Shown here: positions 1 through 64,000 of the stretch, one piece after another
Layout of the letters: each line of letters begins with the position of its first letter
Position numbering within the stretch: the stretch's first letter is position 1
NCBI GenBank assembly: GCA_051294375.1
Contig: CM119271.1
Coordinates: 4,907,579-4,971,578 of the forward strand
DNA length: 64,000 nucleotides
From: Paraspadella gotoi
Lineage: Eukaryota; Animalia; Chaetognatha
Reading direction: 5' to 3'
Made by a program: the position numbers and the translations under genes
The notes under the pieces: generated by a model
Database searches by the model: none
What the model was told of the DNA's origin: nothing
The model's input: the letters and a program-made list of their open reading frames with translations, nothing else

Positions 1-3000
1 GTTTGGTGACGAGGGGCTCGAAGATCGCGTAGAGCTCGAAGCCCGAGGTCATCCAGCCCAAAAGGGTCTCGTGGCGACCCGAGTGGAAAAGGATCTTTAA
101 ACTTCCTACAACGGTGGAAGGAGGATTTTAAAATTAGCAAGATCATGTCCTCCGTAAGCGTTTCACTCTGTAAGCAGCCTCCCAGGGCAACTCACTCGAC
201 GGGGTATGCATCCGGTTGTTGAGGAACTGGTAGAGGCCGAATAGACGTTCTCTTCCCTCCTCGTCCTCGTAGGGGGCCTCGATCGTCGGGGAAGTGAACT
301 GCGACGTTGACTTGGATTTGTAGAGGAAGTGACGGAGGTCGGCGATACCCACCTGAGAGAAGAGAGATTTGACTCAGAAACCAGTGACATTTATATTGTC
401 GAATTAATTGATAATAAAAATTTAAAAGTATAGTGATCTCGACAGACGTTACTATCAAAATAAATTAATAAAAAAATCCGAAAAAAAAAAACAACGAAAT
501 ATTGATGCGATAACGAATTATTCATGTAGTAATTTAGATAAAAATGAAATGGAAGATAATCGCCAGTTCTACAATGACAATATCTTTCATCAAAACACCT
601 GCGAGCAGGAATATTGATCAGCCTTGAGGGCGAGGTGCACCACGTCGAGCGTGTTGGAGATTGTCGTCGACGAGGAAGACGACGCCGAAGCCGTGAGCTT
701 CTCCACAATCTTTCGCTTGCAGTCGGAAAGGGTGAAAAAGGCCTCGCGGTCCACGGTCAGGAGGAGGAGGCAGCACCGCGTCGCCTCCTCGTCCACGTAA
801 GAGACATGGGCGTGGAAGAAGGCGCCAGCGTCGAAGCGCGGCAGGCAGATGGGCGTCCACGACTCGGCCGCCTGAGTTGATGGTGGAGGGGAAGAGTTTT
901 GTGGTAAAAAACTGTTAATACCTGCTACTAATGAATTTTTCCATATGGCTAATAAATAAAATCACTAAAACCTTGAACGATTCCGACGAATGGACCAAAT
1001 TAAAAATAAGGTGGAGATCGGCGGGATGCAAATAATATTTCTTCATTCGGACCATAGTGATCAGTTGACCTACATAAAAGGGGAGAAAAAACCTGTTTTT
1101 TCAACTTCAACTCTTCCCTCCATTAACCTTAACGAGTTAACTCACCAGAGTCCGTGATAAGTATTGCAAAGACGAGGTCCCTCACTTTGGCGCAGGAGGA
1201 AGAGATGGCGGCGGAGATTTGATCTCTAACGGAGGCGGCGAGAGGGAGGCAACGCACGGAGCAGAGAAGAATCGAAGGGTCGGTCTCGAAGCGGCGGAGG
1301 AGAAAGTCGATGAACTTTTCGGATCCTGAAAGGAATGCGGTTACTCGTGAAAAATTCGTTCAATTTACACAAGTAAACAAAAAAACCTAGGCTGTTACCA
1401 GCGAGCAGCCTCCTGAGATCGAAGTTGGGTTTGTCGTTAAGGATGCGGTTGAGCGTGGAGAGGGTTAGGACGGAGAGGATCTGATTGTAGACGTAGGTGA
1501 GGCTGAGCGCCATCTGTTGCGTCGACTCCCGCGTCCCGCTCACGGCCACCAGAATCAAGGGGTCGCGGTTGATAAAGACGAACTTGTGGTTTCCTACGCG
1601 GGTAAAAAGGGAGAAAAAGGATGCGACTTCGTTGTAGAAAAATAGTAACTTGATGCGGTATAACTACATGGCCTCAGCTCCACCTTGACTCAGCCAATCA
1701 CAAAGGCTCCGAAGCCCCCAACGCCCCCTGTGATGCCAATTCCAGCTGGGCATCACAGGGAAAGTGGATGTTGCCATAAACTAATTGGTTGTACCAATTT
1801 TATAAAAAAACTCACGACCACTCCAACCTGCGATCATGCATCTCAAACTATCGTCGTCGTCGCGGATGAAAGAGACGAGGGCCTGCATGACGCCGAAGAG
1901 CGTGACCAGCTCGTCTTCATTGCCATAGCGAGTGTAGATGGGTTTTCCGGCGACGCTGAGGGCGAACACGTGTTTTCGTTTTGCCCGCCACTCGTCCGAG
2001 CTGAGGGCGACTGGTTGGCCGCAACTGCCAGGTCGACCCTGATCCAAGAAAAGAAAAGACTCGGAATTCTTTCGATTTCTGATTCGAATAAAAAAGGTGA
2101 TAACAAATTCCGCACCTGTCGTATTCTCTCTTCTTCGTCGTGAGCCTCAGTCGACGTTCGATCCGCGGGCGGGATACATCGGGAACTTAAAGGCCGGGGT
2201 GGACGTTGCTCGGGCGGGATATCTTTGGGAAAGAGCATTATTATAACTATTTCTCAAATAAGAACAGTAAAAATTAACAAACCGGGAGAGTTATCCCCAG
2301 TAACAATCTCGAGACTGCCGCTCTCCAAGCTGCTGCCGACTGAAGAAATGCGGGGCTTAGAGGGAGACGGCGGGTGACTGAAAATATTTTGTAATCATTG
2401 AAAATGTTCAAAACGTTAAAAACTATCGGAAATTGGCCATGAAATATAATCCTTACCTAGAAAAGGAAAGCCGCTCCACTAGCTCTGGATCGAAAGATTC
2501 GTCTTCAGCGTTGTTCACGACTTCAAAAAAAATCAAGGTATAAACTAATAATGAAGTTTAGTGCTTAACATTAACCAAAAACCAACTGACCCAACTCAGT
2601 TTCTGGATTGCTGTGAACGCTGGAGAGGCTCCCCGACAAGGAGACGCGCATCATTTCCTCCTGAATCTCGGAGATGGTTGACCGTCGCAATTCTGTGCGA
2701 CCTTCAACCGAGGCATCTGAGTCGTGAAAGTAAATGATTGCCTGTCGTTCCCATCCTCATTAATCATACGTATCCAAATTTTCATGACTTACGTCGGACT
2801 TACGTCTGACTGCAGCAGAGATGACTTCAACTTCGTCGTTCGCTACACCTGGCGATGTGCCCAAAGCGCCCGTCGGAGTGTCTTCCCATGAATCGTTGGA
2901 GGTGGTTGATACGAGCAGCGCTGCGGAGGCGACCACACCGCCTGATGTATTTATGGAATTAAAAGTTTACTAAAACTTGATAAAAGTTGTAGTCTACTCC

Positions 3001-3228
3001 ACCTGGCTCCTGTCCCTCGGCGACATCGTCCTCGGACTCGGCGCTTACATCGTCCTCCTCCAACTCCACATCCCCGACGAAGGTCGCGCGGGAAAATGAC
3101 GACTCCGACTCCAACTTCGACACTTCGCCTGACGTAATCTCCCCCCACTTCTCGCCCTCGACGTCACCGTCTCTCGTTCTCGTCTCCTCGATCAGCGTCG
3201 AATCGTTTGGCGTCGAGAGCGACTCCAT
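1..3228 (-). CDS. MON1: Vacuolar fusion protein MON1 homolog, multi-exon, 3' end beyond window start
   Basis: Exons encode [96 protein letters not shown] and [20 protein letters not shown], typical of MON1/SAND. Start ATG (MESLSTPND) at 3228 is inferred. Confidence 0.9.
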
Positions 3229-62900: not shown

Positions 62901-64000
62901 TCCTCTTCCAGATCGAAGTCGTAGACTGATGCTGGGTCTGAAAGTAGATATATACACCGTGAGCCAAATCGATTGAATGATACCTGACCTACCAAACATT
63001 GTTTGCAGAGGAGGATTTAGCCTGCCGTCCAATTCTCCTCTTTCTCTTCTTTCCACCTCCTCCTGCCCCTCAGTATATTTTGTCTAGCGATACATTCTCT
63101 CGTTTCTACTCCTCGCGAAATATACCATTATTTTCCCTCTATTTCTTCATGCCTTCAATAGTCAATACCCCTCAAGGTTTGTTTCTAGATTTAGATTTAT
63201 AGATTTGTAGATTTATTGTTCCTATAACATATTTTTAGTTTTGTAGATTTATTGTTCCTATAACATAGGAACCTTTTGCAACCATTCCCGTAATTATTTA
63301 TTTGCTCTCTTTTCTTTCAGAAAAAGATTTACACAACAAATAAGTTTGATTCTTTTGCAAGACTTCTTTAGTGACAAATTACTTTAATAAAATTTTAAGA
63401 TAATTCTTAATTATTTCTCTTCTCGAATACCCGCTGTGGGAGAGGATGGGATTGGCCTCGAGGCACCGAGAAGCGGAGATCTTAAAGGGTCTTCCTTCAT
63501 CATTTTCTCTTCCGCCGCCGCCGCCGCCACCGCCACCACGGCGACAGCAGCCGCCTTTTTCGCTTTGCTCGTCGTCGTTTTGTTCTCCGTGGCCTCCTTC
63601 GCTTTCCGCCCTCCCTTTCGTCCAACGACCATGTTGGCGCCGGCATTCTTTCGCTGCGGGCGCTGCGGCGGCGCCACCGGGTTTTCGGCCAAAGCCGACT
63701 TGTCAACATAGGCGACCTGCTTGGCCAAATCCTTGCTCAGTTTTGCTGGAACGAGGTCCTCGGGAATTAGATCTTTCGATTTGACGAGGTAATCTTTGGA
63801 AGAGAGCCACGACTTCAAAACCAGCGCCATCTCTTTCGCGGCTCTGGATAAATGGAGTAGAAACGATCGTTTGGAGATAAAGGGTTTTGAGGTTCTGCCA
63901 GTAGCGACTTAGAAGAAAAACTCGAAAGACAAACCGAAAAAACATAGGATGTGGCGGGCGCTTCTCCTCCCTGGCGAGGCTGAGGTGGTGGCGGAGAAAG
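59934..64000 (-). CDS. KDM7/PHF2/PHF8-family JmjC histone demethylase, 3' part only (5' end beyond window)
   Basis: C-terminal KKGFATAKQRLGKILKL, DKDYIYPALE, DDTWTPGAK..REG, and helix LKSW..IPEDLVPAKLSKDLAK, all characteristic of this family. The PHD and JmjC domains lie outside the window. Confidence 0.82.
60994..61033. repeat. (TAAA)n microsatellite in an intron
   Basis: Perfect tetranucleotide run. Confidence 0.9.
63205..63325. repeat. Intronic tandem duplication plus dispersed repeat shared with 20378-20432
   Basis: TTGTAGATTTATTGTTCCTATAACATA occurs twice; TGCAACCATTCCCG.AATTATT..TTTCAGAAAAA is also present in a CLEC16A intron. Confidence 0.6.

What the first reader, a model, noticed from the sequence alone, without database searches (positions are those of the whole stretch)
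1..64000. Unbroken head-to-tail array of 19 unrelated genes on one strand: candidate very long animal operon or polycistronic unit
Seen: every non-nested gene from KDM7 to MON1 is on the minus strand, and the array runs off both window ends. Stop-to-ATG spacers by my gene models are about 135, 198, 262, 277, 317, 325, 332, 356, 361, 364, 409, 414, 459, 581, 599, 785, 1011 and 1790 bp. The shortest leave little room for a 3'UTR, terminator and promoter. Random orientation would give about 2^-18, or about 2^-16 after collapsing the two tandem pairs. Known: nematode and tunicate operons contain unrelated housekeeping genes resolved by spliced-leader trans-splicing but are usually much shorter, whereas long directional clusters are typical of kinetoplastids. 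Inference: unusually long polycistronic or directional organisation in an intron-rich animal genome.
Basis: partly seen in the sequence, partly recalled or inferred. Interest (0 to 1): 0.85.

Follow-up and report, generated by a model that had tools for sequence, protein, structure and literature searches.

The report
Nineteen co-oriented genes, likely arrow-worm operons
Nineteen intron-containing genes lie head to tail on one strand, and spliced RNA contigs run unbroken across 7 of the 11 gaps examined; the animal is likely an arrow worm, a group already known to transcribe genes in operons and cut them apart with a spliced leader, so this is likely a chain of such operons, possibly longer than the nine-gene maximum reported.

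Summary
Nineteen genes lie on the minus strand and run off both window ends. All 18 spacers were reproduced. The only plus-strand gene found is a zinc-finger ORF nested in an intron.

One public run is spliced RNA. Single contigs cross 7 of the 11 spacers laid, including the 1011-bp and 1790-bp ones, and chain into blocks of five genes (Ig_b to MON1) and four (EXOG to SLC4A1AP).

A chimeric loose end in that run matches the last 20 nt of a chaetognath spliced leader at 18 positions, so the animal is probably an arrow worm. Chaetognath trans-splicing and operons are published; the longest has nine genes.

No leader was seen on any window gene, contigs cannot prove single transcripts, and no genome was held for run-length statistics. 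In an operon-rich genome one or a few 19-gene runs are expected.

Verdict: most likely several known-type operons in tandem. A single unit of 19 or more genes remains open (about 0.2).

The parts
59934..64000 (-). KDM7/PHF8-like demethylase, 3' part; runs off the right end
   Evidence: Pfam JHD, E 9.7e-5; stop at 59934
58444..59334 (-). TRAPPC5
   Evidence: Pfam TRAPP; intact 205-aa spliced model
57918..58308 (-). Glutaredoxin; 135 bp behind TRAPPC5
   Evidence: Pfam Glutaredoxin; 98-aa model
48177..57561 (-). hnRNPU-like gene (SPRY-like region by eye, AAA_33, RGG tail), 4057-bp first intron
   Evidence: Pfam AAA_33; model; stop position depends on the frame of the G-rich tail
54219..55697 (+). 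C2H2 zinc-finger ORF nested antisense in the hnRNPU-like intron; the only plus-strand gene found
   Evidence: Pfam zf-C2H2, E 1.3e-6; intron 57351..53295
47331..47851 (-). FMC1-like gene (name from recalled resemblance)
   Evidence: 108-aa model; intron 47536-47729 seen spliced in X9
47895..47896 (-). Candidate trans-splice acceptor AG, 43 nt before the FMC1 ATG, no good donor upstream
   Evidence: X9 contig edge computed at 47894; best donor in spacer scores -2.2 against a 5th percentile of 0.87 for true donors; a hint only, one contig of one study
44047..47132 (-). TCP1 (CCT-alpha); strong acceptor-like AG at 47168-47169, 35 nt before the ATG
   Evidence: Pfam Cpn60_TCP1; 550-aa model; acceptor score
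42104..43685 (-). EXOG/ENDOG nuclease
   Evidence: Pfam Endonuclease_NS and Exog_C; 385-aa model
36244..41849 (-). Multi-exon gene ending in a MYND finger
   Evidence: Pfam zf-MYND; spanned by X9 record 19; script model incomplete
33359..35784 (-). RNF126/RNF115-like RING ligase
   Evidence: Pfam Zn_ribbon_19; 461-aa model
29332..32347 (-). SLC4A1AP (kanadaptin); 1011 bp behind RNF126
   Evidence: Pfam FHA, dsrm; 830-aa model; 7 introns seen spliced
27999..29069 (-). Short-chain dehydrogenase a, single exon
   Evidence: Pfam adh_short
26463..27584 (-). Short-chain dehydrogenase b, tandem paralogue of a
   Evidence: Pfam adh_short; 50% identity
18862..26053 (-). CLEC16A
   Evidence: Pfam FPL, CLEC16A_C; homologues up to 84%; last exon assigned by inference
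16186..18280 (-). Ig-domain gene a
   Evidence: Pfam I-set; model
12834..15400 (-). Ig-domain transmembrane gene b, paralogue of a
   Evidence: Pfam Ig_3, C2-set_2; 30% identity; X9 record 3
8131..11043 (-). SAMHD1-like HD-domain gene (name from recalled resemblance); second possible start at 10269, 17 nt behind the acceptor at 10287-10288
   Evidence: Model; 6 introns among the listed joints; record 2 begins at 10286
5591..7853 (-). DDX41
   Evidence: Pfam DEAD, Helicase_C, zf-CCHC; 619-aa model
7389..7389 (-). Junction of a chimeric RNA contig: DDX41 exon 1 followed by a chaetognath-type leader 3' end and another gene's sequence
   Evidence: Loose end; leader table; motif absent from the window
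3593..5258 (-). PCYOX1
   Evidence: Pfam Prenylcys_lyase; 491-aa model
1..3228 (-). MON1; runs off the left end
   Evidence: Pfam Fuz_longin 1-3; 9 introns among the listed joints

Best explanation
The window holds 19 head-to-tail genes of an animal that is likely a chaetognath, and they are likely transcribed as a chain of several operons of about four to nine genes, whose precursors would be cut into single mRNAs by poly(A) cleavage and spliced-leader trans-splicing. Shown: the gene order and strand; spliced RNA contigs that cross seven spacers; a chaetognath-type leader fragment in the RNA run. Inferred: each spacer is mostly the upstream 3'UTR, ending close to an AG acceptor some 10-100 nt before the next ATG, as in the one operon described for Spadella (3 bases between poly(A) site and acceptor); the leader is added at that AG; a few genes in the run (candidates: the Ig genes, the single-exon dehydrogenase, KDM7) start from promoters of their own. 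The unbroken strand follows from operons lying next to each other, plus two tandem duplications.
For: RNA continuity: X9 record 1 covers 3002-3745 and 4229-5841, record 2 covers 7389-8562, record 3 covers 10988-15060; record 19 covers 41581-42328 and 35726-36401, record 18 covers 31958-33717. Records 3-2-1 and 19-18 overlap by 29-30 nt, so they chain. Introns are skipped in X9 and not in DNA runs X1 and X5. Leader: 1 of 23 listed loose ends matches the last 20 nt of chaetognath SL2.0 at 18 positions, the last 15 exactly; chance about 2e-5; a 13-mer of it stands in 2 papers of the library, the chaetognath leader table and an E. coli engineering paper. The chaetognath idea was noted before this result (note). 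Acceptor-like sites are enriched in the last 120 nt before the 18 ATGs (mean best score 1.46 against -0.37 in shuffles, p 0.004; against 3'UTR windows p 0.016). The FMC1 contig edge falls on the first base after an AG (hint only). PCYOX1 has 7 unnamed environmental relatives at 51-56% while named animals reach 40%. CpG observed/expected is 1.3, fitting the unmethylated gene bodies reported for P. gotoi. In P. gotoi about half of genes are trans-spliced and 18% lie in operons.
Against: No leader was seen at the 5' end of any window gene; the one leader fragment is on a chimeric contig and belongs to another gene. A contig across two genes shows no single transcript: overlapping UTRs or low read-through also fuse contigs. 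All RNA evidence is one run of one study. The acceptor enrichment is modest (median score 1.2 against 3.1 for cis acceptors). Only 2 of 18 stop-to-ATG spacers are under the 250 bp used for P. gotoi operons, though that limit is between annotated genes, which have UTRs added. The contig edge at 10286 is explained by ordinary cis-splicing, and the single-exon dehydrogenase contig does not begin at an AG. No named chaetognath protein was among the homologues, so the taxon rests on the leader fragment.
Confidence: 0.62

Rival explanations
1. All 19 or more genes (64 kb or more) form one transcription unit, or the genome is built of long directional clusters with rare promoters, approaching the kinetoplastid plan in an intron-rich animal.
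For: The run is open at both ends. RNA crosses the two longest spacers (1011 and 1790 bp), which distance rules would call operon ends. The Ig_b contig is spliced onward into SAMHD1. TCP1 and EXOG contigs come within about 17 nt of each other at an A-run where DNA contigs also break. All but one of the 18 spacers are T-rich on the sense strand like 3'UTRs. With P. gotoi operon counts alone, only about 0.35 runs of 19 are expected per genome.
Against: The longest chaetognath operon reported has nine genes, and operons there are depleted of nervous-system and signalling genes, which the two Ig genes likely are. An antisense gene sits inside the run. With a same-strand rate of 0.65-0.70, 3-10 such runs are expected without any new mechanism.
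Confidence: 0.19
2. Each gene has its own promoter in a compact genome; 3'UTRs overlap the next promoter or read through, which fuses RNA contigs; the strand run is a tail event helped by tandem duplication.
For: Random orientation still gives 0.04-0.15 such runs per 20,000 genes, and many windows were scanned. A CCAAT-like 7-mer stands before 3 of 18 ATGs against 0.08 expected, one of many k-mers tested. No shared spacer motif was found.
Against: It needs overlap or read-through at 7 of 7 spacers with a listed bridging piece, up to 1.8 kb long. The run carries a chaetognath-type leader, and housekeeping genes are the typical trans-spliced and operonic class there. Acceptor-like sites are enriched before the ATGs.
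Confidence: 0.15
3. The pattern is an artefact: misassembly of the window, or genomic DNA in the RNA run bridging the spacers.
For: X9 is RNA by guess only, and assembly graphs keep low-depth paths that have no alternative. Probable single-base errors in the window (frame changes in CLEC16A and in the hnRNPU-like tail) show an imperfect assembly.
Against: DNA contigs of two studies cross several junctions (X1 31012-35251, 35664-40787, 40947-43077, 46687-48020; X5 31353-35253, 41011-43032). X9 skips introns at all 30 listed joints. Gene strand does not depend on the RNA data.
Confidence: 0.04

Closest known systems
Chaetognath operons resolved by spliced leaders (Spadella cephaloptera, PMC2481426; Paraspadella gotoi, PMC12460157)
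   Same: Co-oriented, closely packed housekeeping genes; leader 3' end of the same sequence type; Spadella BAC with several clustered same-orientation genes; unmethylated gene bodies and many tandem duplicates.
   Different: Run of 19 or more against a longest reported operon of nine genes; RNA crosses 1.0 and 1.8 kb spacers against a 250-bp rule; includes two Ig-domain genes; species of the window not determined; leader not seen on these genes.
Tunicate operons (Ciona intestinalis, Oikopleura dioica; PMC7986045, PMC11067885)
   Same: Unrelated genes head to tail; little or no DNA between poly(A) site and acceptor; no operon-specific leader.
   Different: Ciona operons reach six to seven genes, the O. 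dioica example nine. By the 500-bp rule used for O. dioica, applied to stop-to-ATG spacers, this window splits into groups of 8, 4 and at least 4 genes plus three singles.
Nematode SL2-type operons (C. elegans)
   Same: Polycistronic housekeeping genes resolved by trans-splicing.
   Different: About 100-bp intercistronic regions and a dedicated SL2; the acceptors here lack the strict nematode consensus (consensus recalled); the leader fragment is of chaetognath type.
Kinetoplastid directional gene clusters (features recalled)
   Same: Long unbroken strand run of unrelated genes.
   Different: Genes here are intron-rich (68 modelled introns, median 77.5 nt) and a nested antisense gene occurs; genome-wide organisation could not be tested.

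Membership tests
Chaetognath SL-resolved operons | Organism carries a chaetognath-type spliced leader | tested here: met
   One chimeric loose end in RNA run X9 matches SL2.0 at 18 of its last 20 nt; a single observation
Chaetognath SL-resolved operons | Leader joined to the 5' end of genes in the cluster | tested here: inconclusive
   None among 5 of 5 loose ends in 1-16000 or the 6 X9 rows shown (1249 rows not shown); assembled contigs drop such short branches; FMC1 edge at an AG is a hint
Chaetognath SL-resolved operons | Same-strand neighbours under 250 bp apart between annotated gene ends | tested here: inconclusive
   Same strand 18 of 18; stop-to-ATG under 250 bp in 2 of 18, under 500 bp in 13 of 18; UTR ends unknown
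Chaetognath SL-resolved operons | RNA continuous across the intercistronic region | tested here: met
   7 of 11 spacers laid are crossed by one spliced contig; contigs do not prove single molecules
Chaetognath SL-resolved operons | Poly(A) site within a few bases of the next acceptor | not testable with these tools
   Only assembled contigs available; no raw reads for 3' ends
Chaetognath SL-resolved operons | One promoter for the unit, none inside | not testable with these tools
   No CAGE, ATAC or ChIP data could be laid
Nematode SL2-type operons | Nematode-type leader and strict acceptor consensus | tested here: not met
   Acceptor profile is a loose pyrimidine tract with C at -3 in 56%; leader fragment is chaetognath-like; nematode consensus recalled
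Kinetoplastid directional gene clusters | Almost intronless genes | tested here: not met
   68 modelled introns; 30 listed RNA joints
Kinetoplastid directional gene clusters | Genome-wide runs of tens to hundreds of genes between strand switches | not testable with these tools
   No whole genome held; no other windows of this genome noted

The most novel reading that the evidence does not exclude
A chaetognath transcribes 19 or more intron-rich genes over 64 kb or more from one promoter, with long 3'UTRs running up to the next trans-splice acceptor, so that distance-based operon calls (nine genes at most) badly undercount and an animal genome holds kinetoplastid-scale polycistronic units.
Probability: 0.19. 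Interest if true: 0.85.

Novelty: new member of a known kind. Interest (0 to 1): 0.47.

Why it matters
Animal operons reported in the papers read here stop at seven to nine genes, and they were called largely by short distances between genes. Here spliced RNA crosses spacers of 1.0 and 1.8 kb and links an Ig-domain gene to housekeeping genes. If this reflects real precursors, operon length in chaetognaths is undercounted, and the question of how long an animal polycistron can be becomes testable with long-read, leader and chromatin data. If all 19 genes share a promoter, it would be about twice the longest case found in these papers. If the run is a chain of ordinary operons, it is a good example of a known system.

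Tried and rejected
Genome-wide run lengths: no genome held. Sequencing runs: no RNA holder on record was listed; X9 was RNA by guess and proved spliced when laid. Parts without listed cover, which prove nothing: about 80 nt at 29151-29231 between SLC4A1AP and dehydrogenase a; 47895-48200 upstream of the FMC1 contig; the FMC1-TCP1 spacer could not be resolved from the cut tables. The depth step from 36 to 222 at 10286 would fit trans-splicing into SAMHD1, but contig depths cannot rank parts of genes, so it was not counted. Synteny in relatives: the metagenome scan returned 23 loci, none from the close PCYOX1 relatives. Naming those relatives: 0 of 29 cluster members carry a name; the protein atlas gave no answer. 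Xenoturbella as source: considered and dropped; its median intron is 131 nt and it has 15,154 genes in 111 Mb against 77.5 nt and one gene per 3.4 kb here. A shared spacer motif: none convincing; the CTATAA seen by eye stands in 4 of 18 spacers; AATAAA in 7 of 18. Rfam: 0 matches, so no SL RNA or snoRNA family in the window. The P. gotoi supplements: three PDFs searched, no gene names of this window and no leader sequences; the spreadsheet with the operon list was too large to read and may show whether these genes are in published operons. Earlier scan notes: none for this genome; three tight-pair notes from other genomes did not bear on the reading.
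Full report
Observation. I read the whole minus strand and built spliced models in scripts. Nineteen genes follow each other on the minus strand from a KDM7-like gene at the right end to MON1 at the left, both cut by the window. Pfam supports 17 of the 19; FMC1 and SAMHD1 are named from recalled resemblance. All 310 plus-strand ORFs of 50 aa or more were scanned, and one is a credible gene: a C2H2 zinc-finger ORF inside the first intron of the hnRNPU-like gene. 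Two neighbour pairs are paralogues. Introns are short (median 77.5 nt of 68 modelled; five MON1 introns with doubtful ends were left out). DNA contigs of two studies cross several gene junctions, so the order is not an assembly artefact there.

Chance. Per 20,000 genes, random orientation gives 0.04 runs of 19, or 0.15 runs of 17 units. If neighbours share a strand at a rate of 0.57, which I derived from the P. gotoi operon counts, the figure is 0.35; at 0.65 it is 3 and at 0.70 about 10. The run is unusual, but not beyond an operon-rich genome. No genome was held, so the real distribution is untested.

RNA. Nine public runs of three studies hold the stretch 26000-35900. Run X9 is spliced RNA: all 15 joints listed are minus-strand GT-AG introns and are absent from DNA runs X1 and X5, and all 15 listed are of the same kind. 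Eleven of the 18 spacers lay wholly inside the two stretches laid. Seven are crossed by one contig piece: EXOG-MYND, MYND-RNF126, RNF126-SLC4A1AP (1011 bp); Ig_b-SAMHD1 (1790 bp), SAMHD1-DDX41, DDX41-PCYOX1 and PCYOX1-MON1. Length arithmetic shows that records 3, 2 and 1, and records 19 and 18, overlap by 29-30 nt, giving continuous spliced paths over five and four genes. TCP1 and EXOG contigs come within about 17 nt at an A-run where DNA contigs break too. The tool warns that a contig across two genes shows no single transcript; what is shown is that these spacers are present in RNA from end to end, with no untranscribed promoter gap. The tables were cut, so the other four spacers are undecided.

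Leader and organism. CLEC16A is 74-84% identical to listed animal proteins with no close named relative. PCYOX1 has seven unnamed environmental relatives at 51-56%, while named animals reach 40%. This suggested a common group without annotated proteomes, and I noted chaetognaths as a candidate. The later lay gave five loose ends; one, at 7389 inside DDX41 exon 1, read on the gene strand, begins with 20 nt that match the end of chaetognath SL2.0 at 18 positions, the last 15 exactly. The chance over all 23 listed loose ends is about 2e-5, and the motif is not in the window. A 13-mer of it occurs in two papers of the library: the chaetognath leader table and an E. coli engineering paper. The contig is a chimera, likely a library product, joining DDX41 to the leader-bearing start of another mRNA. 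It shows the leader in the run, not on a window gene. CpG observed/expected of 1.3 fits the unmethylated gene bodies of P. gotoi. I put the chaetognath assignment at about 0.9; the species is not determined.

Acceptors. Scored with a profile from the window's own introns, the last 120 nt before the ATGs hold better acceptor-like sites than shuffles (p 0.004), 3'UTR windows (p 0.016) or other spacer windows (p 0.03), but they are weaker than cis acceptors. The FMC1 contig edge computes to 47894, the first base after an AG with no good donor upstream; 10 of 325 positions in that spacer follow an AG. This is one contig and a hint only. Against it, the edge at 10286 is explained by cis-splicing, and the dehydrogenase a contig does not begin at an AG. 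No shared spacer motif was found.

Mechanism. Most likely polymerase II reads several genes per precursor; each upstream mRNA is cleaved and polyadenylated near an AG acceptor, where a leader is trans-spliced to cap the next mRNA. Shown are the layout, the RNA continuity and the leader in the organism's RNA. Inferred are the use of the leader at these genes, the position of poly(A) sites and the number of promoters. I favour a chain of operons (0.62) over one unit (0.19), separate promoters with read-through (0.15) and artefact (0.04).

Comparison. In Spadella, three bases separate poly(A) site and acceptor in the one operon described, and the BAC holds further clustered same-orientation genes (PMC2481426; sections 12 and 13 and passages read). 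In P. gotoi nearly half of the genes are trans-spliced, 18% are operonic, the longest operon has nine genes, and operons were called at under 250 bp (PMC12460157; abstract, sections 5, 9, 10, 19 and passages read; three PDF supplements searched, spreadsheet not readable). Ciona operons reach six to seven genes (PMC7986045, passages); O. dioica has a nine-gene example and a 500-bp rule (PMC11067885, passages). PMC11521371 (Xenoturbella) and bioRxiv 2025.01.31.635879 (Spadella) were seen as passages only. Kinetoplastid and nematode consensus features are recalled. Seven searches, judged from titles and abstract starts, showed no report of an animal operon of 19 genes or of animal directional clusters; the library lacks most subscription papers.

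Verdict. The feature is real and works like a chaetognath operon chain; membership is likely but not proved, since no leader was placed on these genes. Novelty: new member of a known kind. Interest 0.47. The open part is length: RNA crosses spacers far beyond the published distance limits.

Noticed in passing
window 53500-55697 (+): The nested zinc-finger gene seems to have upstream plus-strand exons (donor near 54030, acceptor near 54205) and a further short ORF at 53419-53817, so the intron may hold one or two antisense genes.
   Followed up: partly
window 10287-11043 (-): SAMHD1-like gene has two possible starts: an ATG at 11043 on a small exon carried by the Ig_b contig, and an ATG at 10269 just behind the acceptor; the acceptor may serve both cis- and trans-splicing. 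No SAM domain is evident in the model.
   Followed up: partly
window 24660-24760 and 48170-48470 (-): Reading-frame changes inside CLEC16A and in the G-rich tail of the hnRNPU-like gene; likely single-base assembly errors or unmodelled small introns.
   Followed up: no
window 35181-35726, 40682-41094, 42977-43111, 46062-46787: High-copy repeats (summed DNA depth up to about 490,000 against about 100) fall in bins that hold these introns, while the spacers crossed by single DNA contigs look unique; the 46123-46705 element has a second copy at 51834-52151.
   Followed up: partly
window 48931-49027 and 49370-49466: Inverted repeat of 97 bp (88% identity) inside an hnRNPU-like intron, likely a small transposon.
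   Followed up: no
window 56870-56930: Short telomere-like hexamer repeats inside the long hnRNPU-like intron, with a 39-bp inverted match between 55782-55820 and 56697-56735.
   Followed up: no
window 12834-15400 (-): The Ig-domain transmembrane protein ends in a domain matched by Pfam DUF5580_C (E 3.6e-7), an unusual cytoplasmic tail; a 5'UTR intron is likely at 15951..15747.
   Followed up: no
window 36244-41849 (-): Large multi-exon gene without a family hit apart from the C-terminal MYND finger; possibly lineage-specific.
   Followed up: no
window 57561 (-): The hnRNPU-like protein appears to start directly before its SPRY-like region, without the N-terminal SAP domain recalled for this family.
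   Followed up: no
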